Virus record (IMG/VR): IMGVR_UViG_2623620505_000005
Reading direction: 5' to 3' (one strand)
DNA from: a virus
Lineage: Duplodnaviria; Heunggongvirae; Uroviricota; Caudoviricetes
DNA length: 46,276 bases
The translations under genes were made by a program, and so were the position numbers. Below, one piece after another: positions 386-21,816 of this stretch. How positions within the stretch are numbered: the first letter of the stretch is position 1; each line of letters opens with the position of its first letter. Below the pieces are notes generated by a model. That model made no database searches. It was not told the origin of the DNA and worked only from the letters and a program-made list of their open reading frames with translations.

Positions 386-1624
386 ATGGCGCTGTCTGAT
401 GCGTGGTTGCGTTCAGTCGTTGGAAAGGAACGTGATAAGGTTTTGGTTAAATCCGATCGTGATGGTCTGTCTGTCAGAGTATCACCGAAAGGTCGCGTAG
501 TGTTCCAATATCGTTATCAATGGGCAGGGAAAGGTGAGCGCCTTGATATCGGAACTTACCCGGCAACTGGATTAAAAGAGGCCAGAGAAGAAGTTATCCG
601 TCTCCGTGGTGAACTCGAGTCAAACCGCAATCCACGATTAGTCAAGCAGGCTGAAAAACGAAAAGCTACTGAAGCCATGACGGTAGAGTCTGTGATCCGT
701 GCCTGGTATGAAGCATATTGTGTAAAAAATAAAAAAGGTTCTGAACAGATACTCCGCTCGTTTGAGCTGCACCTGTTCTCTAAAATCGGGAATATCCCTC
801 ACGATGCAGCTACATTGCATGATTGGTTAGAAGTCCTAGAGCCTCTTAGCACCAAGACTCCAGCAATAGTAGACCGATTGCTAATTAACGCAAAGCAGGC
901 TCATGTCTGGGCGTATAAGAGAAAGCTCATTGAAACTCGCCCACTGTCGGATATCACGGGTAAAGATATGGATATCCGTAAAGGTCAGAAAAAACGGTTT
1001 CTGACACATGATGAAATTAGCATCCTTTATGCTGCGATCGATGGTTCTCGAATGGTTCCTAAATACCGAGCCTTCATTAAACTATTGCTGCATTTTGGTT
1101 GCCGTAGTTCAGAGCTAATTACTGCTAGGGTGGATGATTTTGATTTCATAAATAAGGTATGGACTGTACCACCAGAACGACATAAGACTGGGGACATAAC
1201 AGGCGAACCGCTAAAGCGGCCCATTATTGAACCGGTTGAAGAGCTTATAAAATACGTTATCTCTATGAACAACGGTTCCGATATGCTTTTTACTAAGGAA
1301 GGAAGCAGGGAGCCAGTTGGTCGGACATCATTGCAGTCGCTGCCTTACAATTTAATGCAGTTCGCATGGCGACGTTTGGGGTATCAATTTCCTCATTGGT
1401 CTCTTCATGATTTGAGACGAACAGCACGAACAAACTTTTCTGATCTTACTGCGCCTCATATTGCTGAAATAATGCTCGGTCATAAACTGCCAGGGGTATG
1501 GCAAGTTTATGATAAGAGCGATTATCTAGAAGAACAGCGTAAAGCCTATCAGGCATGGTGGGATAGGGTTGATTCGATTCTTACTTACACTAATTTAGGT
1601 TCCAACAGACAGCCTATTGAATAA
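386..1624 (+). CDS. int: Tyrosine site-specific integrase (P4-like)
   Basis: 412 aa; conserved catalytic-region motifs read in the translation (R in FGCRSSEL, HDLRRTARTN, Tyr in VYDKSDYLEE); sits at the prophage junction. Confidence 0.9.
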   Translation: MALSDAWLRSVVGKERDKVLVKSDRDGLSVRVSPKGRVVFQYRYQWAGKGERLDIGTYPATGLKEAREEVIRLRGELESNRNPRLVKQAEKRKATEAMTVESVIRAWYEAYCVKNKKGSEQILRSFELHLFSKIGNIPHDAATLHDWLEVLEPLSTKTPAIVDRLLINAKQAHVWAYKRKLIETRPLSDITGKDMDIRKGQKKRFLTHDEISILYAAIDGSRMVPKYRAFIKLLLHFGCRSSELITARVDDFDFINKVWTVPPERHKTGDITGEPLKRPIIEPVEELIKYVISMNNGSDMLFTKEGSREPVGRTSLQSLPYNLMQFAWRRLGYQFPHWSLHDLRRTARTNFSDLTAPHIAEIMLGHKLPGVWQVYDKSDYLEEQRKAYQAWWDRVDSILTYTNLGSNRQPIE

Positions 1625-1738
1625 TGAATAGACATACAGAGTAAGAAAATAGTAATGATTCTTGGATTATAATTAACTGATTGCTGATATTTCGATTTGC
1701 CGATTTATGAAGAGACGGTCATTATACTTATAAAAACA

Positions 1739-1770
1739 CCACTCCTTATCCTTACAGAAATAAGGAGTGG
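1739..1770 (-). terminator. Rho-independent terminator for the leftward avcD-like transcript
   Basis: 11-bp perfect inverted repeat CCACTCCTTAT / ATAAGGAGTGG with a 10-nt loop, 7 bp past the stop codon of the 1777..3372 gene; the minus-strand transcript continues UGUUUUUA. Confidence 0.5.
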
Positions 1771-1776
1771 AAACAG

Positions 1777-3372
1777 TTATGGCTGAGACTCTGGTTTAGC
1801 AATCTCGTTTATAAATTTCTTAGCTACAACAGTCTCATACTTTCTATAATCATCAAGATATTGAACATCTATATGATTTTTGTAGCGAGCATTAAATTTA
1901 TTTGCAGCCCCTGTTTTATCATCTTTACGTTCATCCGTTGGTCTGAAAAATTTATGGTAGCGGCGGGGTGATACCCCCTCAAAATCACAAAATATTACTT
2001 TGGAAGATTCTTCGTTCTTTGTTATTGCATCATTATGCAGATCAAGAGCAAGGCTTTTATCAAATGGCTCTATATATACTACTTTTTTTATTCCAGATGC
2101 GACAATATGCCTTGCACAGTTGTGGCAGGGATAGGTTGTCGTAAAAAGAATTTTATCTTTAGTATCGCCGTTTTGTTTTCTAGCCATTGATGTAATGACG
2201 TCCATTTCAGCATGAATTGATCTGGAGTACTCCATTACACTTGATATTTTGCTGTCTTTGTAAATGCCTTCTGCAATATTATCTAATTTGTTTAGAAGTC
2301 GTGTTATATTAATATCGGCAACAGTTTGTCCTGCGGAAATACCTAATACACTTCTTACTTCGGTTGATAATATGCTTTTTATACGGTCTTTAATTTTTAG
2401 CTTGTTTGCATCATTATAACACTTACCACTTTTGTGAACGCATCGATGATCGTTATCAAAATCATCACTGCTATACAACCCGCCACCAGCTTTAGGTACG
2501 TCGTTCTTACCCACGGCAAGCAAATTCCCTTCATCATCAAACAGTGCAGCCCCTACTTGACGTGATAAACAAGCTGATTGTAATGATGTTGAAAAGGCAG
2601 CATACATACCTTTCTCGTTAAAAGTTGGTGTTAAACCATTTTTGCCATGAATAAGACCGAAAAACCGATCAATCTTCTTCTTTAATTCACTTTTTTGGCT
2701 GAAGTTATTTTTAATAAAAAAATCTGAATCAAGAATGGTTTCCCCGGTTCTTTGTCCATACGGATCAGAGGATTTATTATCAATATTGATAATTAAATGA
2801 AGGTCGTCCTTTGCCGATTCGTCAGCAATGAGATTCGGAATTCGGTAATCTAAATCGCGCAAAACTCCTAACAAATAGAAATTATGCTGATATATAACTC
2901 TGAATAACTCTATTTCTTCCGGCCTTTTGAATTGATCAATGATGAAGACAGTACCTTTATATTCATCATTATTATAATCAATATTCTTTTTCGCTGCTGC
3001 GATTGCTGCAATAGCAGCTTCTGCAAGCAACTCATTTTTTTCGTAATGTTTACGAAGTTTATTGGCAATATCCTGGAGTTTTAAATGTCTATTAACTTGT
3101 GTGCTTTCGGATACCTTCAGTGCTGCGGGCTCAAAATATAATGGGTCTTCCATAAGCGCACTTATGCGGATGTGTACAACATTATACCCCCATTCTTTGG
3201 ATATCTCTTCGATAATTTTGTTTATCGTTCTCATGCCACATCCAACATATCCACACAATCCAAGATAAATATCTTTTGATTGTCGTGAATTCACAATCTC
3301 AAGTGATGATGCCGATGTTGAGCCTTTTTTTTCATTCAGCTTTTGTGGAGTTTTTTTTGCTGCTTCAGCCAT
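1777..3372 (-). CDS. avcD: P-loop NTPase / deoxycytidylate-deaminase fusion protein, AvcD/DCD-like anti-phage dCTP deaminase
   Basis: 531 aa. C-terminal half has the zinc-deaminase signature (SACLSRQVGAAL ... HAEMDVI ... PCHNCARHIVASGIKKVVY); N-terminus has a glycine-rich P-loop-like segment (GLCGYVGCGMRT). Size and architecture match the AvcD/DCD family; AT-rich relative to the phage backbone. Confidence 0.7.
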   Translation of the reverse strand: MAEAAKKTPQKLNEKKGSTSASSLEIVNSRQSKDIYLGLCGYVGCGMRTINKIIEEISKEWGYNVVHIRISALMEDPLYFEPAALKVSESTQVNRHLKLQDIANKLRKHYEKNELLAEAAIAAIAAAKKNIDYNNDEYKGTVFIIDQFKRPEEIELFRVIYQHNFYLLGVLRDLDYRIPNLIADESAKDDLHLIINIDNKSSDPYGQRTGETILDSDFFIKNNFSQKSELKKKIDRFFGLIHGKNGLTPTFNEKGMYAAFSTSLQSACLSRQVGAALFDDEGNLLAVGKNDVPKAGGGLYSSDDFDNDHRCVHKSGKCYNDANKLKIKDRIKSILSTEVRSVLGISAGQTVADINITRLLNKLDNIAEGIYKDSKISSVMEYSRSIHAEMDVITSMARKQNGDTKDKILFTTTYPCHNCARHIVASGIKKVVYIEPFDKSLALDLHNDAITKNEESSKVIFCDFEGVSPRRYHKFFRPTDERKDDKTGAANKFNARYKNHIDVQYLDDYRKYETVVAKKFINEIAKPESQP

Positions 3373-8770: not shown

Positions 8771-9314
8771 GCATCACTGGAAAGTGGAAAAACAACCTGA
8801 CTGGTACGTGAAAGCTGTCAGAAAAACTATCGCGGCATTGCCAGGTGGTTACGCTGAAGCTGCTGACTGGCTGGATGTAACAGAGAACGCATTATTTAAT
8901 CGCCTTCGTGCCGATGGTGATCAGTTTTTTCCGTTGGGATGGGCAATGGTTTTACAGCGTGCGGCTAGTACTCATCACATTGCGGATGCTGTTGCACAGT
9001 CTGCTGGTGGGATGTTTGTATCGCTTCCTGAAATTGAGGAAGTAGAGAACGCCGATATAAACCAGCGCCTGCTGGAAGTCATCGAACAGATCGGGAGTTA
9101 CTCAAAGCAGATTCGTTCGGCAATCGAAGATGGGGTCGTGGAGCCACACGAGCAGACAGCAATTAATGATGAGTTGTATCTGTCAATTTCGAAGCTCCAG
9201 GAGCATGCAGCACTGGTCTACAAAATCTTTTGCGCTCCAGAAAAGAGTGACGCCCGCGAGTGTGCAGCTCCGGGCGTCGTGGCGTTTTGTGTCTGTGGAG
9301 AAACTAACGCATGA
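8763..9314 (+). CDS. Early regulatory protein (CII-like / YdaT-like), function uncertain
   Basis: 183 aa; directly follows cro with overlap, the position cII occupies in lambda; no motif I can assign with confidence. Confidence 0.4.
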   Translation: MGKHHWKVEKQPDWYVKAVRKTIAALPGGYAEAADWLDVTENALFNRLRADGDQFFPLGWAMVLQRAASTHHIADAVAQSAGGMFVSLPEIEEVENADINQRLLEVIEQIGSYSKQIRSAIEDGVVEPHEQTAINDELYLSISKLQEHAALVYKIFCAPEKSDARECAAPGVVAFCVCGETNA

Positions 9315-10462
9315 ACAGTTTAACGGCAAATAACCGTTTGTCGCAACAGCTGGTGGTCAGTGTCGCTGAACACCGGTTGTTATGGCATGAATGCAGATTA
9401 CCAAATCACCTGGCTGTAAGTAACCACAGAGAACTTTACCTGACTGTGGGGGGCGAGTTGTGCAGGAACTTAACCGCTGGTTTCGTGACGGAAGAGGACT
9501 TTATGTTCATGTTATTCGTTGGGAGCCAGAAACACAGCGCGTTATCTATCTTCGCAAAGACTACCCGCATGAGTGCTTTAGTCCTTTGTGGAAATTCAGG
9601 CGTGATTTTGTTGAGTGTGAAGGACCACCAGCACATTGATTCTGCCATTCCGGGACGTTACACTGTTCAGGCACCTTATAAAACGGGTGCCGGGCGTGGA
9701 AACCCGGAATTCACCAAAGCGCACAACCGCGCTCTTGCGGTTTTTTTGTGTCATGAGCAGCATTACGCCCAAATTATGGTGGGGCGTGCAGGGCCAACTT
9801 CGGTTGGGCCGGGTTCTTTGGTGACCGGTATTTCCACCCCTGTACGTCTCACCACCAATAAGGTCGTGGAAAGCCTTGGTGGTGAGTTATTAAAAATCAC
9901 CAAAGAGGCTGCCATCATGGCTACGATCCCAACCCTCACTCAACCTGAAATTGCCATCGTTGATGGTCAGGCTGTTACTTCATCCTTGGCTGTTGCCAAC
10001 TTCTTCTCCAAACGTCATGACGATGTACTGAAAAAGATCCGCACGCTTGAATGCTCAGCATCATTCACTGCCCGCAATTTTTCGGTGAGTGATTACACTG
10101 ATTGCACAGGTCGCAAACTTCCTTGCTACCAAATCACACGCGACGGTTTTGCGTTTCTTGCTATGGGTTTCACGGGTAAACGTGCTGCCCAGTTCAAGGA
10201 GGCATACATCAATGCCTTTAACCAGATGGAGAAACAGCTTTCAAAGCCCTCTGTACCGAGCGACGTTGCACATAACGCCAGCGTTCTCTGTTCCTACATT
10301 TCATCAATTCATCAGGTCTGGCTGCAGCAGCTTTATCCTATGTTGGCAAAAGCCGAATCTCCGCTGGCTGTTAGCTTGTATGACTATATTAATGATGCTT
10401 CGGCACTGGCCTGCCTCATAAATTTGTCGCTGAACCCTTCAGAGGTATGGGGGCGCAAATGA
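9311..10462 (+). CDS. Rha-family phage regulatory protein with a long N-terminal extension
   Basis: The C-terminal 181 aa (from the ATG at 9917, which has an AAGAGG ribosome-binding site) resemble Rha regulatory proteins; the upstream 202 codons are in frame with no stop and no recognised domain. Confidence 0.55.
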   Translation: MNSLTANNRLSQQLVVSVAEHRLLWHECRLPNHLAVSNHRELYLTVGGELCRNLTAGFVTEEDFMFMLFVGSQKHSALSIFAKTTRMSALVLCGNSGVILLSVKDHQHIDSAIPGRYTVQAPYKTGAGRGNPEFTKAHNRALAVFLCHEQHYAQIMVGRAGPTSVGPGSLVTGISTPVRLTTNKVVESLGGELLKITKEAAIMATIPTLTQPEIAIVDGQAVTSSLAVANFFSKRHDDVLKKIRTLECSASFTARNFSVSDYTDCTGRKLPCYQITRDGFAFLAMGFTGKRAAQFKEAYINAFNQMEKQLSKPSVPSDVAHNASVLCSYISSIHQVWLQQLYPMLAKAESPLAVSLYDYINDASALACLINLSLNPSEVWGRK

Positions 10463-11486: not shown

Positions 11487-11977
11487 TCATGAGTCTTTTG
11501 AATGAAGTTCAGAAATTCATTGAAGCCCATCCGGGGTGTACTTCCGGAGACATTGCGGATGCTTTTGCAGGTTACTCACGGCAGCGCGTTCTGCAGTCAG
11601 CAAGCAAGTTACGTCAGAGTGGGCGTGTGGCTCACCGTTGTGAAGGAGATACACGCAGACATTTCCCACGCCTGACTGAGAGAGCGCAGGAGCCGGAACC
11701 ACAACCAGTTCGTGAAACCAGACCTGTGCGCAATTTCTATGTCGGCACTAACGATCCCCGGGTGATTTTGTGCCTGACCCGCCAGGCGGAAGAACTGGAG
11801 TCTAGGGGCTTATACCGTCGTGCTGCAACGGTGTGGATGGCGGCATTCCGTGAAAGCCACTCCCAGCCAGAACGAAACAATTTTCTGGCGCGTCGTGAGC
11901 GGTGCTTACGGAAAAGCAGCAAGCGCGCTGCATCAGGTGAAGAGTGGTATCTGTCAGGGAATTACGTGGGGGCTTAA
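11483..11977 (+). CDS. Hypothetical protein; possibly a PerC/ANR-like small regulator (weak)
   Basis: 164 aa; segment EELESRGLYRRAATVWMAAF is reminiscent of PerC-family proteins. This is a weak recollection, not verified. Confidence 0.45.
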   Translation: MIMSLLNEVQKFIEAHPGCTSGDIADAFAGYSRQRVLQSASKLRQSGRVAHRCEGDTRRHFPRLTERAQEPEPQPVRETRPVRNFYVGTNDPRVILCLTRQAEELESRGLYRRAATVWMAAFRESHSQPERNNFLARRERCLRKSSKRAASGEEWYLSGNYVGA

Positions 11978-12630
11978 TGAGTAATAAATATTGCCAGGCG
12001 CTGGTGGAGCTGCGGAACAAACCAGCCCATGAACTGAAGGAAGTGGGCGATCAGTGGCGCACGCCGGATAACATTTTCTGGGGAATTAACACCCTGTTTG
12101 GCCCGTTTGTTCTGGATCTGTTCACTGACGGTGATAACGCCAAATGTGCCGCGTATTACACGGCGGAAGACAACGCGCTGGCGCATGACTGGTCAGAACG
12201 TCTTGCGGAGCTTAAAGGTGCTGCCTTTGGTAATCCCCCATACAGCCGCGCCAGTCAGCATGAGGGGCAATACATCACCGGCATGCGTTACATCATGAAG
12301 CATGCCAGTGCCATGCGTGATAAAGGCGGGCGCTATGTTTTCCTGATCAAAGCTGCCACCAGCGAAGTGTGGTGGCCGGAAGACGCAGACCATATTGCTT
12401 TTATTCGCGGGCGTATTGGTTTTGAACTTCCTGCCTGGTTTATCCCGAAGGATGAGAAGCAGGTGCCGACAGGCGCTTTCTTCGCTGGTGCTATTGCTGT
12501 TTTCGACAAGACCTGGAAGGGACCGACAATCAGCTACATCGGGCGCGATGAACTTGAGGCATGTGGTGAGGCGTTTCTGGCGCAGGTTCGCCAGCAGGCA
12601 GAAAAACTTGTCAGGGAGATGGCGGCATGA
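11977..12630 (+). CDS. Phage Dam-like N6-adenine DNA methyltransferase
   Basis: NPPY catalytic motif (FGNPPYSRAS). Start at the ATG at 11977, overlapping the upstream stop (TAATG) with a G-rich ribosome-binding site; the track ORF starts at a GTG 33 nt earlier. Confidence 0.8.
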   Translation: MSNKYCQALVELRNKPAHELKEVGDQWRTPDNIFWGINTLFGPFVLDLFTDGDNAKCAAYYTAEDNALAHDWSERLAELKGAAFGNPPYSRASQHEGQYITGMRYIMKHASAMRDKGGRYVFLIKAATSEVWWPEDADHIAFIRGRIGFELPAWFIPKDEKQVPTGAFFAGAIAVFDKTWKGPTISYIGRDELEACGEAFLAQVRQQAEKLVREMAA

Positions 12631-16538: not shown

Positions 16539-17591
16539 ATGAAAAATACTGTAAAAATAAACAGTGTTGATTTAATCAACGCTGATTGCCTGCATTTTAT
16601 TCAGTCCCTGCCTGATGATTCCATTGACCTGATTGTTACCGATCCGCCGTACTTCAAGGTGAAACCCAACGGCTGGGACAATCAGTGGAAAGGGGACGAA
16701 GATTACCTTAAGTGGCTGGACCACTGTCTGGCCCAGTTCTGGCGGGTGTTAAAACCTGCCGGAAGCCTTTACCTGTTCTGTGGGCATCGCCTGGCATCTG
16801 ATATTGAGATCATGATGCGTGAACGTTTCAACGTGCTTAACCATATCATCTGGGCGAAGCCGTCCGGACGTTGGAATGGGTGTAATAAAGAAAGTCTGCG
16901 CGCATATTTTCCTGCCACAGAGCGCGTTCTGTTTGCTGAACATTACCAGGGGCCATATCGCGGCAAAAGTGACGGCTATGCGGAAAAAGAAAGGGAACTC
17001 AAACAGCGCATAATGGCACCGCTGATATCGTATTTCAGGGATGCTCGTGCCGAACTGGGTATAACGGCAAAACAGATTGCCGAAGCCACAGGTAAGAAAA
17101 ATATGGTTTCCCACTGGTTTGGTGCCAGTCAGTGGCAGTTGCCGAATGAGGCTGACTATCGGAAGTTACAGGCACTGTTTTCCCGTATAGCGGCAGAGAA
17201 GTTTCAGGAACAACAACTGGAACAACCACACCACCAGCTGGTGGCATCTTATGATTCACTGAATCGCAAATATTCTGAATTGCTGGATGAGTTTAAATCT
17301 CTCCGGCGCTATTTCTCCGTATCAGTCTCCGTGCCTTATACCGATGTCTGGATGCATAAACCCGTTCAGTTCTACCCGGGTAAACATCCGTGTGAGAAAC
17401 CGGCGGATATGCTCAGGCAAATAATCAATGCCAGTAGTCGACCAGGTGATCTGGTTGCTGATTTTTTTATGGGATCCGGTTCCACAATAAAAGCAGCAAT
17501 GGCGTTGGGGCGTCGGGCCTTAGGTGTTGAGCTTGAGTCAGAGCGGTTTAACCAGACAGTGAAAGAGATAAACGAGCTGGTGGGGAAATAA
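16539..17591 (+). CDS. DNA methyltransferase (beta-class N6-adenine/N4-cytosine), orphan
   Basis: 350 aa; DPPY motif near the N-terminus (LIVTDPPYF) and a SAM-binding FxGxG motif at the C-terminus (DFFMGSGST); no adjacent restriction endonuclease gene. Confidence 0.85.
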
Positions 17592-17874: not shown

Positions 17875-18371
17875 TGTCGCCATCATTACGCAAGGCTGTT
17901 GCTGCTGCTATTGGTGGTGGGGCTGTTGCCATAGCGTCTGTGCTCATTACTGGTCCGAGTGGTGACGATGGCCTGGAAGGTGTCAGCTACATACCATACA
18001 AAGATATCGTTGGTGTATGGACTGTATGTCACGGGCATACAGGAAAAGACATCATGCTCGGTAAAACGTATACCAAAGCAGAATGCAAAGCACTCTTGAA
18101 TAAAGACCTTGCCACTGTCGCCAGACAAATTAACCCGTACATCAAAGTCGATATACCGGAAACAACGCGCGGCGCTCTTTACTCGTTCGTCTACAACGTG
18201 GGTGCTGGCAATTTCAGAACATCGACGCTTCTTCGCAAAATAAACCAGGGCGATATCAAAGGCGCATGTGACCAGCTACGTCGCTGGATATACGCTGGCG
18301 GTAAGCAATGGAAAGGCCTGATGACTCGTCGTGAGATTGAGCGTGAAGTCTGTTTGTGGGGGCAACAATGA
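17874..18371 (+). CDS. R: SAR endolysin (phage 21 R21-type lysozyme)
   Basis: 165 aa; N-terminal Gly/Ala-rich signal-anchor-release segment ([18 protein letters not shown]); closely matches my recollection of R21. Confidence 0.9.
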
Positions 18372-18805
18372 GCAGAGTAACCGCGATTATCTCCGCTCTG
18401 GTTATCTGCATCATCGTCTGCCTGTCATGGGCTGTTAATCATTACCGTGATAATGCCATTACCTATAAAGAACAGCGCGATAAAGCCACGTACATCATCG
18501 CTGACATGCAGAAGCGTCAACGTGATGTAGCAGAACTCGACGCCAGATACACAAAGGAGCTTGCTGATGCTAACGCGACTATCGAAAGTCTACGTGCTGA
18601 TGTTTCTGTTGGGCGTAAGCGCCTGCAAGTCGCCGCCACCTGTGCAAAGTCAACGACCGGAGCCAGCGGCATGGGCAATGGAGAAAGCCCAGGACTTACA
18701 GCAGATGCTGAACTCAATTATTACCGTCTCCGAAGTGGAATCGACAAGATAACCGCGCAGGTTAACTACTTGCAGGAGTACATCAGGACGCAGTGCTTAA
18801 AATAA
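18368..18805 (+). CDS. Rz: Rz i-spanin
   Basis: N-terminal transmembrane segment followed by a coiled-coil region; ATG overlaps the endolysin stop (ATGA); contains an embedded +1-frame Rz1. Confidence 0.8.
18561..18752 (+). CDS. Rz1: Rz1 o-spanin (lipoprotein embedded within Rz)
   Basis: 63 aa entirely within Rz in another frame; lipobox LLGVSAC followed by a Pro-rich segment. Confidence 0.75.
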
Positions 18806-18850
18806 TTTTAATTTCACTGAAATTTAACAAGTGAAGTGACTTTCAGGAAA

Positions 18851-18876
18851 ATGCCTCGCAGATGCGGGGCATTTTT
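18851..18876 (+). terminator. Rho-independent terminator after Rz
   Basis: 9-bp stem ATGCCTCGC / GCGGGGCAT with loop AGAT, followed by TTTT. Confidence 0.6.
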
Positions 18877-19168
18877 GTACAGGTATTTCACCGCGCACCG
18901 CAGCGCACTCAACCACGTCGAACCAAACCCTTTGGAATGAGCCTTTGAGTAGTCAGTTAGTGCTGGTGAGCCTTGACGGGCTGATCTCCTATGCAGCAAA
19001 GGTTCATCTCAAAGTAAGGCGAACGCTATGACAAACCAAGATTCTATAGACCTATCTGATCTTCGTGGAATGGTCAGTTTTCCAGACAAAAGGTAATCAC
19101 CATAGTCGTATGGCTATGAATCTTGTTGCTGCAGATAAGCATTTTGTGATTGAAGTGGTCAAATCTCT

Positions 19169-19199
19169 CAAATGCAGTAAAATGCAGTGCGCTATAATT
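19169..19199 (+). promoter_or_regulatory. Candidate promoter of the PD-(D/E)xK-like gene
   Basis: Perfect TATAAT at 19194-19199, preceded by a direct repeat AATGCAGT(A/G) x2; AAGGAG Shine-Dalgarno at 19216-19221; ATG at 19227. Confidence 0.3.
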
Positions 19200-19226
19200 C
19201 AGTAACGGAGGGAGTAAGGAGAAGTC

Positions 19227-19847
19227 ATGAAAGATCAAGATGTTAGGTTCGCGGTGCATCATAAGCTTTTGAAAGAATCGCATTTAGATCCTGACTGCCT
19301 TGTGGTCGATGAATTTTCCATATCCCTTGGCGCCAGTAGAGCAGACATTGCTGTAATAAATGGTGTTATACACGGGTACGAGCTCAAAAGTGAATATGAC
19401 TCTTTGGAGCGTTTGCCTCTTCAAATCAAGCATTATTCTTCTGTAATGGACAAGGTTACTCTTGTCGTAGCTGAGAAACATCTTGAGGGAGCATTAAAGT
19501 TAATCCCAGGTTGGTGGGGCGTTAAAACGGTTTCTGTTGGGCCAAAAGGCGCCATTCTTATAAAGCACATGCGTGGAGAAAAGCTTAATCGAAACCATAA
19601 CTCATTGATGCTCGCTCAATTGCTTTGGAAAGATGAATGTATCGACGTACTTGAACGATGGGGCTATTCCAAAGGAATCAAAAGCAAGCCCCGATTTGAG
19701 TTATGGAATATTATTGCGGAAAATATTCCAATAGCGAATCTCAGGCTTGAAGTCAGAACAGCCTTAAAGAAACGCGTAGGCTGGAAAGTTAAGGCTTGGC
19801 AGGCTGAGTCTGCGCCAACCAATAAAGCTGTCTCACGACTAACGTAA
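19227..19847 (+). CDS. PD-(D/E)xK nuclease-like protein (possibly sce7726-family)
   Basis: 206 aa; N-terminal residues in the order expected for a restriction-endonuclease-like core (E in VVDEF, D in RADIAV, E-x-K in YELK); AT-rich; 3' end overlaps the convergent neighbour by 59 bp. Confidence 0.55.
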   Translation: MKDQDVRFAVHHKLLKESHLDPDCLVVDEFSISLGASRADIAVINGVIHGYELKSEYDSLERLPLQIKHYSSVMDKVTLVVAEKHLEGALKLIPGWWGVKTVSVGPKGAILIKHMRGEKLNRNHNSLMLAQLLWKDECIDVLERWGYSKGIKSKPRFELWNIIAENIPIANLRLEVRTALKKRVGWKVKAWQAESAPTNKAVSRLT

Positions 19848-20856
19848 TATGGTGCGTATGTGCAACTTTACGCCATTCTTTAGAGCCGCCAGATTTGTTA
19901 GCGCCTAATGATCTTTGGTAAATGTAATCATCCCCCCAACTAAATTTGGAGCCAAAGACTTGATACTCTGGCGAACTAACAAGGGTAGTACATAAGTTTT
20001 TAGTTTGGCCCCATCCATTTCCTTTAACTGCGGTACCTTTTACAAAGATCCATGAGGTATCGTTCGAATATCTCACTGAGACATACTGAGACATGAAGCG
20101 TGGGTCTACGCTCGTAATGGTAGAGCTAGCGGTGGGATAATCACTAAAACTTGGCGTTCTTCCATTGCTAAAATTCTGTACTACATACATCCAAAGATCG
20201 TATTCATGGCGCGGAATATGATGAACTTGATGTTGCGGTATCCCTGCCTGTGATGCAGGGTATGCGGTTGAAGATAAAATCAAGTTTCTCCACGGAGCTT
20301 GGCCTGATAATGTGTTGACCATGCTTAATGCTTGTTGTTTTAAACTATCAGTTGCGTTTTGAATATCTCCAAAATCAATGATTACATCAATTAAACTAGG
20401 ATGAATATTTAAGTGGTTAACCAGACTTGTGAATTGGTGCCATGTCTGGGGGGTGATAGATATAGCGAGCCCATTGATTAAGTTGCGTTGAACAGCATGT
20501 ATATAGTTTGTTGAATATGCGGGAGAGACAACAGGGATAATTTCCTTACCATTTACTCTAGCATCTTGGATACACATATCTAGAGGATGATGGCGGCTCG
20601 AACCATGTTTATCTAAATATTTAACATCCAGCAAAACAGGACGATTGGCTTTCCAGGATGCCGCAAGATTAATACCGAAGTCAGATAAGTAAGAACTCAA
20701 ACTCTTCTTGTAGCATTCGTTTTCATAATCCCAGTCTATGTCTGGAATGGTAATGATCGGAGTAAAACCAGAGAGCGTAGTTTGATCTAAAAGCATCAGA
20801 GATTCATATTCAGCAGGCTTCCATTTCAGCTGTGGGTAATATTGATGTTGACTCAT
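19789..20856 (-). CDS. P4 beta-family protein (Beta_protein / possibly sce7725-family)
   Basis: 355 aa; N-terminus YYPQLKWKPAEYESL resembles the start of the phage P4 beta-protein family as I recall it; strong AAGGAG Shine-Dalgarno; convergent with and overlapping the PD-(D/E)xK-like gene. Confidence 0.55.
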   Translation of the reverse strand: MSQHQYYPQLKWKPAEYESLMLLDQTTLSGFTPIITIPDIDWDYENECYKKSLSSYLSDFGINLAASWKANRPVLLDVKYLDKHGSSRHHPLDMCIQDARVNGKEIIPVVSPAYSTNYIHAVQRNLINGLAISITPQTWHQFTSLVNHLNIHPSLIDVIIDFGDIQNATDSLKQQALSMVNTLSGQAPWRNLILSSTAYPASQAGIPQHQVHHIPRHEYDLWMYVVQNFSNGRTPSFSDYPTASSTITSVDPRFMSQYVSVRYSNDTSWIFVKGTAVKGNGWGQTKNLCTTLVSSPEYQVFGSKFSWGDDYIYQRSLGANKSGGSKEWRKVAHTHHITLVVRQLYWLAQTQPAKP

Positions 20857-21067
20857 TAAAACTCCTTAAAATCTTTACTTATCCTAAGTATAGTGTTATG
20901 GCGTAACGCCAATTGTTTTTATACACTTGAAAACATTGGGAAAAGTTGAGCTATATCTAAATTTACAAAATTGGATGTTATAGAAATCGAGGTTTCAACT
21001 AGGCATGGAACTGCAAAATTTTTAATGCCTGCACGCGAAAGTCGTTGGCGGGTCCTTTCCGGCGATC

Positions 21068-21091
21068 CGACAGGTTACGGGGCGGCGACCT
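21068..21091. other. cos site: cosN with the lambda-type 12-nt cohesive end GGGCGGCGACCT
   Basis: CGACAGGTTACG followed by GGGCGGCGACCT (21080-21091), as at the junction of the lambda genome ends; repeat-rich cosB-like sequence lies between here and nu1. Confidence 0.7.
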
Positions 21092-21267
21092 CGCGGTTTT
21101 TCACTATTTATGAAAATTTTTCAGGGAAAATCGTGTCGGTACTTCTCGAATATAACTTTTTGTTTTTTTTAATATTTCATCCGTAAAGGTCCGACATGAA
21201 AGTGTCCGAAAATGCCTTTTTCTGGCGTTTTCATGTCGGGCCTTGTATTTGATAATGGGTTGTTTTC

Positions 21268-21816
21268 ATGAAGGTTAATAAAAAGAGGCTTGCCGAAATT
21301 TTCAACGTGGACCCGCGGACGATTGAACGCTGGCAGTCTCAGGGACTCCCTTGCGCCTCCAAAGGTAGTAAGGGCATTGAATCTGTATTTGATACTGCCA
21401 TGGCAATTCAGTGGTATGCGCAGAGGGAAACTGATATCGAAAACGAAAAGCTCCGCAAAGAACTGGACGATTTGCGTGCGGCAGCGGAGTCAGATTTACA
21501 ACCCGGCACCATTGACTATGAACGCTACAGGCTCACAAAAGCGCAGGCAGATGCGCAGGAACTGAAAAATGCCCGTGAAGACGGAGTAGTGCTGGAAACT
21601 GAACTGTTTACCTTCATTCTGCAACGTGTGGCACAGGAGATTTCGGGGATACTTGTGCGTGTGCCGTTGACATTACAGCGTAAATATCCGGACATTTCAC
21701 CATCACACCTTGATGTGGTGAAAACTGAAATCGCGAAAGCCTCCAATGTTGCAGCTAAGGCCGGTGAAAACGTGGGCGGGTGGATCGATGATTTCAGACG
21801 CGCAGAAGGCAGCTAA
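21268..21816 (+). CDS. nu1: Terminase small subunit Nu1
   Basis: 182 aa; closely matches lambda Nu1 as I recall it, including IENEKLR and DLQPGTI(D/E)YER. Confidence 0.9.

What the first reader, a model, noticed from the sequence alone, without database searches (positions are those of the whole stretch)
19141..20900. Convergent, 3'-overlapping gene pair (PD-(D/E)xK nuclease-like plus P4 beta-family protein) in the Rz-to-cos moron site
Between the lysis cassette and cos, where lambda carries bor, this prophage has an AT-rich two-gene insert with its own promoter-like elements. One gene (19227..19847, +) has the ordered E, D, E-x-K residues of a restriction-endonuclease-like core. The other (19789..20856, -) begins YYPQLKWKPAEYESL, which I recognise as the start of the phage P4 beta-protein family. 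A beta protein is a component of the P4 gop-beta-cll anti-phage system, but here the partner is different and no gop or cll is present. The two genes converge and overlap by 59 bp at their 3' ends, so the transcripts must be antisense to each other there, an arrangement that suggests mutual regulation as in some toxin/antitoxin and abortive-infection modules. I do not know of a characterised system with this exact architecture.
Basis: partly seen in the sequence, partly recalled or inferred. Interest (0 to 1): 0.85.

Follow-up and report, generated by a model that had tools for sequence, protein, structure and literature searches.

The report
Gop-less P4 beta/cII gene pair
A lambda-like prophage of E. 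coli carries, in place of bor, the two conserved core genes (a TIM-barrel "Beta" protein and a "cII" nuclease-fold protein) of the known P4 gop-beta-cII anti-phage system without its toxin gene, and the odd tail-to-tail overlap of the two genes turns out to be a hallmark of this gene pair across more than ten bacterial phyla.

Summary
ORFs 19227..19847(+) and 19789..20856(-) converge and overlap by 59 bp in an AT-rich ~2-kb insert between Rz and cos.

- **Beta protein:** the 355-aa protein is a full-length Pfam Beta_protein, modelled as a TIM barrel.
- **Partner is cII:** the 206-aa protein has a PD-(D/E)xK fold with invariant E29/D40/E52/K54. It is not a "different partner" but the homologue of P4 cII (PADLOC cll 3e-31, NCBIfam sce7726 3e-54, 26% identity to P4 cII).
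- **P4 layout:** P4 itself has beta and cII convergent next to cos. Only gop is missing here.
- **Existing annotation:** PGAP already names both genes, and 126 of 5426 complete E. coli genomes carry the insert.

The new finding is family-wide. In 77 of 78 informative loci from at least 12 phyla, a cII gene is followed by a convergent beta gene. Of 73 non-identical pairs, 71 overlap at their 3' ends, and 68 of those share one phase. About half are bare pairs. Others add HigB plus Xre-M78 (PD-lambda-2), DUF6932 or Gop upstream of beta.

The most likely reading is a minimal beta/cII defence module with a nuclease effector. No experiment has tested the bare pair.

The parts
19032..21041 (.). AT-rich ~2.0-kb insert (moron) between Rz and cos
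   Evidence: Homology to other lambdoid or P22-like phages ends at query position 232 and resumes at 2243 of 18800-21270. GC is 0.35-0.43. The related phage PhiR57_1 has Bor and small ORFs here. 126 of 5426 complete E. coli genomes carry at least 80% of the region.
19227..19847 (+). cII / sce7726-family gene (206 aa), a PD-(D/E)xK nuclease-fold protein
19789..20856 (-). Beta-family gene (355 aa), a divergent TIM-barrel protein
19789..19847 (.). 59-bp 3'-3' overlap, covering cII residues 188-206 and Beta residues 337-355
   Evidence: The cII part is a non-conserved tail with pLDDT below 50. The Beta part lies in the C-terminal helix H325-350. The overlap length is 2 mod 3, the same as in 68 of 71 overlapping pairs.
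19797..19799 (+). TGG codon at the position of the ancestral cII stop (TAG in relatives)
   Evidence: DNA alignment with Klebsiella, Edwardsiella and Pectobacterium loci. It explains why the overlap is 59 bp here and 11 bp there.
19150..19198 (+). Conserved non-coding block upstream of cII, including the tandem AAATGCAGT repeat (19170-19178 and 19180-19188) and a perfect TATAAT (19193-19198)
   Evidence: Nearly invariant across four genera although synonymous sites are saturated. The consensus scan also places TGGTCA-16-TAAAAT at 19156-19183. The AAGGAG Shine-Dalgarno sequence is at 19216-19221.
20918..20960 (-). Conserved non-coding block upstream of beta (TTAGATnTAGCTCAAyTTTT at 20960-20941 and TATAAA at 20923-20918)
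   Evidence: Cross-genus alignment. Sequence read. The AAGGAG Shine-Dalgarno sequence is at 20867-20862.
20899..20911 (+). Palindromic hairpin TGGCGTAACGCCA followed by a T-run on the + strand
   Evidence: Terminator-like site. It lies just beyond the 5' end of beta, so it could stop + strand (cII or late-operon) read-through. It is not conserved in the other genera. Its function is not shown.
18356..18805 (+). Rz spanin (Rz1 embedded), left boundary of the slot
   Evidence: annotated 'lysis protein'.
21080..21091 (+). Lambda-type cohesive end sequence GGGCGGCGACCT (cos), right boundary; nu1 starts at 21268
   Evidence: Sequence. 98% identity to the phage 21 cos/terminase region. Terminase small subunit annotation.

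Best explanation
The insert is a gop-less beta/cII module. It is the conserved two-gene core shared by two experimentally validated abortive-infection anti-phage systems, P4 gop-beta-cII and PD-lambda-2. It is carried as a moron in the Rz-cos slot of a lambdoid prophage of E. coli 1303.

Shown here:
- The two proteins are homologues of P4 Beta and P4 cII.
- cII has a PD-(D/E)xK nuclease fold with an intact, invariant catalytic E...D...ExK set.
- Beta is a divergent TIM barrel with invariant acidic residues (E16, D161, D239).
- The two genes are almost always adjacent, convergent and overlapping at their 3' ends.
- Each gene has its own conserved upstream non-coding block.

Inferred:
- The pair protects the lysogen against other phages.
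- cII is the nucleic-acid-cutting effector.
- Beta is its controller, acting as a sensor or antitoxin. This follows the P4 report that Beta neutralises Gop, and the PD-lambda-2 result that Beta is required for defence but not for toxin neutralisation.
- No terminator lies between the genes, so each transcript must run antisense into the other. That would couple their expression by transcriptional interference or RNA duplex formation and so set the Beta:cII ratio.
For: - **Homology:**
- **P4 layout:** cos-gop-beta facing a convergent cII, with cII annotated as sce7726 family.
- **Folds and catalytic residues:**
- **Obligate pairing:** 77 of 78 informative cII-seeded loci from at least 12 phyla. 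39 of 39 beta-seeded viral loci. At least 13 of 16 beta-seeded plasmid records list 'sce7726 family protein' under the beta match. PGAP coordinates give a 41-bp overlap in E. coli pSTEC1024_3 and 32 bp in Rhodococcus.
- **Overlap statistics:** 71 of 73 non-identical pairs overlap by 4-110 bp, and 68 of those 71 are 2 mod 3.
- **Bare pairs are common:** 41 of 78 loci have no co-directional neighbour within 150 bp of either gene.
- **Defence context:** PD-lambda-2-like four-gene loci sit beside type I R-M, Fic, SocA, NucS and NERD genes. The same prophage carries an anti-phage dCTP deaminase.
- **Published activity of relatives:** gop-beta-cII protects against lambda and P1 (PMC9122126) and is triggered by phage orf184 (bioRxiv 10.1101/2023.04.06.535777). 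PD-lambda-2 needs its Beta-like component C for defence against lambda-vir (PMC9519451).
- **Purifying selection on both genes:**
- **Conserved upstream blocks:**
- **No terminator or structure at the junction:**
Against: - No experiment has tested a bare beta/cII pair. In both validated systems the demonstrated toxin is another protein (Gop, or the Xre-M78 protein), which this insert lacks.
- The PD-lambda-2 construct extends only about 396 bp beyond the 3' end of beta. A convergent cII of about 600 bp, if ECOR42 has one, would be truncated there, yet the construct defends. That would argue against cII being the essential effector. This is an inference, because the ECOR42 sequence was not examined.
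- The chemistry of Beta is unknown. It has only generic TIM-barrel matches and no solved relative by sequence.
- The conserved phase of the overlap can arise passively, since indels must be multiples of 3 once the ORFs abut. It therefore does not prove a regulatory role.
- The 59-bp overlap here is a recent read-through of a stop codon.
- cII is co-directional with the phage late operon and beta is antisense to it. This would also fit a role in the phage's own lytic cycle.
Confidence: 0.55

Rival explanations
1. Restriction-modification-like logic. Beta is a TIM-barrel enzyme that modifies host DNA or a nucleotide pool and so protects it. cII is a restriction-type nuclease that cuts unprotected incoming DNA. 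The convergent gene order would be the kind of arrangement seen in some type II R-M systems.
For: - cII's structural neighbours are largely restriction endonucleases (SdaI, PaqCI, BstEII, NgoMIV, BglII, BamHI).
- Beta is enzyme-like, with invariant acidic residues.
- Beta is reported to behave genetically as a protective 'antitoxin' in P4.
Against: - PD-lambda-2 was classed by its authors as abortive infection and TA-like, and gop-beta-cII causes cell death when triggered. Neither is R-M behaviour.
- In P4 the toxicity relieved by Beta is attributed to Gop, not cII.
Confidence: 0.12
2. A selfish addiction (toxin-antitoxin-like) cassette that stabilises the mobile element carrying it, with no direct anti-phage role. 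cII would be the toxin and Beta the antidote. The convergent overlap would ensure that neither gene is inherited or expressed alone.
For: - The pair occurs sporadically on prophages, plasmids, phage-plasmids and islands in many phyla.
- The linkage is extremely tight.
- Beta is described as an antitoxin in P4.
- An IS1 or IS5 element lies inside the matched region, with beta annotated in two pieces, in two of the E. coli genomes (H9, H10). This shows that loss of beta can be tolerated or selected.
Against: - Both characterised relatives do protect against phages.
- The pair lies in defence islands.
- If beta were an essential antidote, IS-disrupted beta copies next to an apparently intact cII should be lethal. 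The state of cII in those strains was not checked.
Confidence: 0.15
3. A phage-benefit function rather than host defence. cII lies in the same direction as the late operon (S-R-Rz to cos to nu1) and would be transcribed with it at induction, while beta would be silenced by antisense read-through. The nuclease would then act during lytic growth, for example on host or competitor DNA, or would influence lysogeny, as the P4 gene name 'cII' (clear-plaque) suggests.
For: - The orientation in the window.
- In three other loci, including Photorhabdus (L012), cII is likewise co-directional with the upstream Rz.
- In E. coli pSTEC1024_3, sce7726 is co-directional with the flanking phage operon.
Against: - Most loci are not in prophages at all, for example CPR, Bacillota and alpha-proteobacterial chromosomes and plasmids.
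- Each gene keeps its own conserved upstream block.
- The slot is otherwise occupied by lysogenic-conversion morons such as bor.
Confidence: 0.1

Closest known systems
P4 gop-beta-cII anti-phage system (PADLOC/DefenseFinder 'gop_beta_cll'; Ghisotti 1990; Rousset 2022, PMC9122126)
   Same: Both have a Beta_protein-family gene and a cII/sce7726-family gene. The two genes converge tail to tail. Both lie directly beside the element's cos site. Beta is 355 aa in both. The cII catalytic motif is intact in both.
   Different: There is no gop anywhere in the window, so the reported toxin is missing. Identity is only 22% for Beta and 26% for cII. cII here is 206 aa and lacks the roughly 70-aa C-terminal extension of P4 cII. 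The genes overlap by 59 bp here, whereas P4 has a 27-bp gap with an annotated cII terminator. The carrier is a lambdoid prophage rather than a P4 satellite.
PD-lambda-2 (Vassallo 2022, PMC9519451): HigB-like A, Xre-M78 peptidase B, Beta-like C
   Same: The window's Beta scores better against PADLOC PD-Lambda-2_C (4.4e-32) than against the P4 'beta' model (3.5e-10). Natural PD-lambda-2-like loci also end with a convergent, overlapping cII gene (50-bp overlap).
   Different: No HigB or Xre-M78 genes are present here. The PADLOC match covers only the C-terminal half of Beta. PD-lambda-2 was described as three genes, and the cII-like fourth gene seen in its relatives is not part of the published definition.
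NCBIfam sce7725/sce7726 families (named after Sorangium cellulosum genes)
   Same: The 206-aa protein is a clear sce7726 family member, at 183.7 bits against a cut-off of 70. PGAP already names it so.
   Different: The partner is not an sce7725 family protein. The window's Beta has no NF033831 hit, and only 1 of 66 partner proteins has a weak one at 1.5e-4. In these loci the partner is the Pfam Beta_protein family.
PD-(D/E)xK nucleases: the uncharacterized protein SPO1766 (3dnx), plus Can2, NucS and type II restriction endonucleases

Membership tests
gop-beta-cII (P4-type defence system) | Beta protein (Pfam PF14350 / PADLOC 'beta') | tested here: met
   Pfam 8.2e-56 over the full length. PADLOC beta 3.5e-10. 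22% identity to P4 Beta end to end.
gop-beta-cII (P4-type defence system) | cII protein (PADLOC 'cll' / Pfam PF26915 Phage_P4_cII / NCBIfam sce7726) | tested here: met
   PADLOC cll 3e-31. sce7726_fam 3.1e-54. 26% identity to P4 cII, E 4e-19. PF26915 is precomputed for all close homologues and is named Phage_P4_cII.
gop-beta-cII (P4-type defence system) | Gop (133-aa toxin gene directly upstream of beta, same strand) | tested here: not met
   tblastn of P4 Gop against the whole window gives a best E of 2.0. Only about 190 bp of non-coding DNA lie between the start of beta and cos.
gop-beta-cII (P4-type defence system) | beta and cII transcribed convergently | tested here: met
   P4: beta 651..1718(+), cII 1746..2540(-). 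Window: 19789..20856(-) and 19227..19847(+).
gop-beta-cII (P4-type defence system) | Protection against phages or abortive infection | not testable with these tools
   Needs cloning and phage challenge.
PD-lambda-2 | HigB-like component A | tested here: not met
   No such ORF lies next to beta. No HigB appears in the PGAP annotation of the stretch shown, which covers the prophage from its integrase to the tail-fibre genes.
PD-lambda-2 | Xre-HTH + M78 peptidase component B directly upstream of beta | tested here: not met
   Absent. Present in 17 of 77 other beta/cII loci.
PD-lambda-2 | Beta-like component C | tested here: inconclusive
   PADLOC PD-Lambda-2_C 4.4e-32, but only over residues 141-344.
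PD-(D/E)xK nuclease superfamily (for the 206-aa protein) | Alpha-beta-beta-beta-alpha-beta core fold | tested here: met
PD-(D/E)xK nuclease superfamily (for the 206-aa protein) | Catalytic E ... D ... (D/E)xK residues conserved | tested here: met
   E29, D40, E52 and K54 are invariant in 45 homologues of 40-84% identity and are present in P4 cII.
PD-(D/E)xK nuclease superfamily (for the 206-aa protein) | Metal-dependent nuclease activity | not testable with these tools
   Needs biochemistry.
NCBIfam sce7725/sce7726 cassette | sce7726 family member | tested here: met
   183.7 bits against a cut-off of 70.
NCBIfam sce7725/sce7726 cassette | Adjacent sce7725 family member | tested here: not met
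   No NF033831 hit for the window's Beta. 1 of 66 partner proteins hits at 1.5e-4.
Type II restriction-modification | DNA methyltransferase partner of the nuclease | tested here: not met
   The partner is a TIM barrel with no methyltransferase family match.

The most novel reading that the evidence does not exclude
Under this reading, the convergent, 3'-overlapping beta/cII pair is an ancient, autonomous two-gene immune (or addiction) module. Its tail-to-tail overlap would be a built-in antisense regulatory device that has been maintained continuously since before the divergence of more than ten bacterial phyla. Gop, HigB plus Xre-M78 and DUF6932 would be interchangeable accessory modules bolted onto beta. 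The published systems gop-beta-cII and PD-lambda-2 would then be two decorated versions of the same core. PD-lambda-2 would in nature be a four-gene system whose nuclease gene was left out of the tested construct.
Probability: 0.35. Interest if true: 0.7.

Novelty: new variant of a known kind. Interest (0 to 1): 0.5.

Why it matters
Two validated but mechanistically unexplained defence systems, gop-beta-cII and PD-lambda-2, share a core that nobody seems to have dissected. That core is a TIM-barrel protein and a PD-(D/E)xK nuclease, always encoded tail to tail with overlapping ends.

The E. coli prophage version is the minimal natural form, with two genes, no accessory toxin and native promoters. 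It is therefore the cleanest substrate for three questions:
- What does the core do?
- Which protein is the effector?
- Is the convergent overlap a regulatory device? Conservation of such an arrangement across phyla is, to my knowledge, very unusual for bacterial gene pairs.

The result also suggests that current detection rules in PADLOC and DefenseFinder, which to my knowledge expect gop for this system, miss the commonest form of the system. About half of the sampled loci are bare pairs.

Tried and rejected
- **gop remnant:** tblastn of P4 Gop against the whole window and blastn of P4 1-2700 found nothing.
- **Consensus promoter and terminator scan:** promoter-like sites are not enriched (5 against 5.7 expected), and there is no terminator in or near the overlap. 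Cross-genus conservation was more informative.
- **RNA structure at the junction:** MFE z-scores of 100-nt windows centred on the overlap, in 73 loci and on both strands, are no different from windows inside either gene (means -0.24 and +0.06 against -0.16 to -0.25). There is no conserved hairpin or embedded bidirectional terminator.
- **Rfam scan of 18700-21400:** nothing meaningful.
- **Secondary Pfam similarities:** searching all 66 Beta and 45 cII homologues gave none.
- **Broad Beta alignment (A3):** it was too divergent to seed a collection scan, so the beta-seeded tests used A2 in viral contigs and tblastn in plasmids.
- **Whether E. coli ECOR42 PD-lambda-2 has a cII neighbour:** only coordinates were obtainable. 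HigB-XreM78 hits in plasmids often lack beta/cII altogether, so the point stays an inference.
- **Ghisotti et al. 1990:** the paper is not held. I recall from memory that mutating the cII terminator in P4 gives a temperature-sensitive phenotype attributed to reduced beta expression. I could not verify this, and it is not used as evidence.
- **DNA-level search of the pair in plasmids:** no match.
- **Rejected idea, two unrelated morons that happen to abut:** refuted by the co-occurrence data.
- **Rejected idea, the 59-bp overlap length is itself meaningful:** refuted by the TAG-to-TGG read-through.
Full report
**1. The observation**

They converge and share 19789..19847, which is 59 bp. The region is AT-rich, with GC 0.35-0.43 against about 0.50 in the flanks. 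It lies between Rz/Rz1 (18356..18805) and the lambda-type cos end GGGCGGCGACCT (21080-21091) followed by nu1.

The window is 100% identical to a prophage of E. coli 1303 (NZ_CP009166.1). There, PGAP already names the genes 'sce7726 family protein' and 'beta family protein'. 126 of 5426 complete E. coli genomes carry at least 80% of 18800-21270.

Flank homology to other phages ends at about 19031 and resumes at about 21042. A phage with the same cos/Nu1 has Bor and small ORFs in the slot.

Both genes are under strong purifying selection. dN/dS against Klebsiella and Edwardsiella orthologues is 0.04-0.08 with synonymous sites near saturation. The cII value against Pectobacterium is also 0.05, and the beta value there could not be computed because synonymous sites are saturated.

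**2. What the proteins are**

The 355-aa protein is a full-length Pfam Beta_protein (8e-56) and is 22% identical to P4 Beta end to end.

The 206-aa protein matches three independent models:
- PADLOC's 'cll' model at 3e-31.
- NCBIfam sce7726_fam at 3e-54, or 183.7 bits against a cut-off of 70.
- P4 cII itself, at 26% identity over residues 1-195 with E 4e-19.

P4 cII is annotated 'sce7726 family protein'. The large protein database assigns the homologues to Pfam PF26915, which names Phage_P4_cII. Only gop is missing (tblastn best E = 2).

- The cII-like protein models at pLDDT 89.8, except for a disordered tail at residues 189-206.
- E29, D40, E52 and K54 are invariant in 45 homologues.

**3. 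The architecture is not peculiar to this prophage**

P4 itself reads cos - gop(+) - beta(+), then a convergent cII(-), with a 27-bp gap holding the cII terminator. The arrangement beside cos is the same as in the window, minus gop.

I fetched 80 loci seeded with the cII alignment from one genome per species. I searched all their ORFs with a Beta HMM.
- 77 loci have a Beta gene immediately downstream and convergent.
- Two of the remaining three end at a contig edge, and one (L007) truly lacks Beta.
- All 66 partner proteins tested match Pfam Beta_protein.

Across all the collections searched, the hosts span Pseudomonadota, Myxococcota, Bacillota, Bacteroidota, several CPR lineages, Elusimicrobiota, Gastranaerophilales, Gemmatimonadota, Chloroflexota, Spirochaetota, Omnitrophota, Desulfobacterota and Actinomycetota.

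Seeding from the other side gives the same picture:
- 39 of 39 informative beta-seeded viral contigs have the convergent cII.
- At least 13 of 16 beta-seeded plasmid records list 'sce7726 family protein' under the beta match itself.
- PGAP's own coordinates show a 41-bp overlap in an E. coli phage-plasmid and a 32-bp overlap in Rhodococcus.

The cII family is large, with 3711 representatives of 50%-identity clusters at E of 1e-3 or better.

**4. The overlap**

Of 73 non-identical pairs, 71 overlap at their 3' ends by 4-110 bp, typically 41-47 bp. Two have gaps of 14 and 39 bp. Of the 71 overlapping pairs, 68 are 2 mod 3, 3 are 1 mod 3 and none is 0 mod 3. In most loci the conserved C-terminal Trp of cII is encoded inside the Beta ORF.

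Stop codons alone define these ends, so the result does not depend on start-codon choice.

My reading is as follows. Once two convergent ORFs abut or overlap, every indel falls in at least one ORF and must be a multiple of three. The shared phase therefore indicates that the overlap has been held continuously since the common ancestor. It does not by itself prove a regulatory role.

In the window the overlap is 59 bp only because an ancestral TAG stop is TGG here (19797-19799). The Klebsiella, Edwardsiella and Pectobacterium orthologues stop there and overlap by 11 bp. The extra 16 residues are non-conserved and disordered.

I found no terminator and no excess RNA structure at the junction in 73 loci, and no Rfam match. 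Unless Rho intervenes, each transcript must run antisense into its partner.

Both genes keep strongly conserved non-coding blocks upstream across four genera:
- cII: a tandem AAATGCAGT repeat plus a perfect TATAAT at 19193-19198.
- beta: TTAGATnTAGCTCAAyTTTT ... TATAAA.

Both genes also have strong Shine-Dalgarno sequences. Separate, regulated promoters are therefore likely.

**5. Accessory genes**

| Arrangement | Count |
|---|---|
| Bare pair (no co-directional neighbour within 150 bp of either gene) | 41 of 78 loci, including the window |
| Xre-HTH + M78 peptidase (PADLOC PD-Lambda-2_B, 1e-139) directly upstream of Beta | 17 loci |
| ... of those, preceded by HigB (PD-Lambda-2_A) | 8 loci |
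| ... of those, preceded by DUF6932 | 6 loci |

Three further loci were sampled through the Xre-M78 protein alone. All read HigB - XreM78 - Beta, then a convergent PF26915 cII with a 50-bp overlap, and they sit among type I R-M, Fic, SocA, NucS and NERD genes.

The published three-gene PD-lambda-2 (PMC9519451) thus has natural relatives with four genes.

Its tested construct extends only about 396 bp past the end of Beta. That would truncate a convergent cII if ECOR42 has one. I could not check the ECOR42 sequence, so this is an inference.

HigB-XreM78 also occurs without Beta/cII, so it is a separable module.

NCBIfam's sce7725 model hits only 1 of 66 partners weakly. The partner here is therefore the Beta family, not sce7725 proper.

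**6. How it most likely works**

The established facts about relatives are these:
- gop-beta-cII protects against lambda and P1, and Gop is reported to be toxic without Beta (PMC9122126).
- Phage orf184 triggers gop-beta-cII cell death (bioRxiv 10.1101/2023.04.06.535777).
- In PD-lambda-2, component B is toxic, A neutralises it, and the Beta-like C is required for defence but not for neutralisation.

The role of cII has never been dissected. In the bare pair, the only candidate effector is the cII nuclease.

I therefore propose that this is a minimal beta/cII defence module. cII would cut nucleic acid. Beta would sense infection or restrain cII. Convergent, unterminated transcription would couple their levels.

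My confidence in this overall explanation is 0.55. It breaks down as follows: about 0.97 that the genes are a functionally linked pair homologous to P4 beta/cII, about 0.65 that the function is anti-phage, and about 0.4 for each of the effector/controller assignment and a regulatory role for the overlap.

The rivals are an R-M-like logic, a pure addiction cassette, and a role in the phage's own lytic cycle. The last is suggested because cII is co-directional with the late operon and beta is antisense to it.

**7. Novelty and verdict**

The genes are already annotated. The three-gene systems are known, and the convergent order exists in P4. The finding is therefore not a new kind of system.

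Three things appear undescribed in the papers I could search:
- The gop-less two-gene form is the commonest form.
- The same core underlies both gop-beta-cII and PD-lambda-2.
- The tail-to-tail overlap in a fixed phase is conserved across phyla.

I rate this as a new variant of a known kind, with interest 0.5.

Noticed in passing
window 1780-3372 (-): The same prophage carries an anti-phage dCTP deaminase gene next to its integrase (PGAP 'anti-phage dCTP deaminase'; PADLOC dCTPase 1.4e-163). It is a second defence moron at the other end of the prophage.
   Followed up: partly
window 16539-17591 (+) and 11977-12630 (+): Two DNA methyltransferase genes have no adjacent nuclease (PADLOC MTase_II 6e-152 and 3e-158). 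One lies between the Q antiterminator and the holin. They are likely orphan, anti-restriction-type phage methylases.
   Followed up: partly
L123 4681-7852; L125 4729-7912; L127 4704-7885: Loci resembling the published three-gene PD-lambda-2 system have a fourth gene. It is a convergent PF26915 (Phage_P4_cII) nuclease-fold gene overlapping the Beta gene by 50 bp. The published construct (ECOR42, 228989-232396) leaves only about 396 bp beyond Beta.
   Followed up: partly
L044, L070, L071, L072, L076, L082 (about 8876-9502 in most): In alpha-proteobacterial and related loci, the HigB position upstream of Xre-M78/Beta is taken by a DUF6932 protein (Pfam 5e-33; PADLOC PDC-M63A 5e-7). This is another accessory variant of the same core.
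   Followed up: partly
L007 6001-6900 (Xenorhabdus koppenhoeferi): This is the only informative locus where a cII/sce7726 gene has no Beta partner. The downstream sequence contains HRDLKPxN-like codons suggestive of a protein kinase.
   Followed up: no
E. coli genome hits H9 (NZ_CP042892.1) and H10 (NZ_CM128593.1): In two E. coli genomes the matched region contains an IS1 or IS5 element and beta is annotated in two pieces ('beta family protein (x2)'), while sce7726 is still annotated. If cII were a toxin held in check by Beta, this should be deleterious.
   Followed up: no
window 19170-19188 (+): A tandem direct repeat AAATGCAGT(A/G) with 10-bp spacing lies immediately upstream of a perfect TATAAT. 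It is conserved in Klebsiella, Edwardsiella and Pectobacterium loci and looks like a regulator binding site over the cII promoter.
   Followed up: partly
L131 4010-5645 (E. coli plasmid pSTEC1024_3, CP061267.1): A second, divergent bare beta/sce7726 pair in E. coli (41-bp overlap) sits in the early region of a phage-like plasmid, between a Hok toxin gene and the replisome organiser. The module therefore uses more than one phage slot.
   Followed up: no
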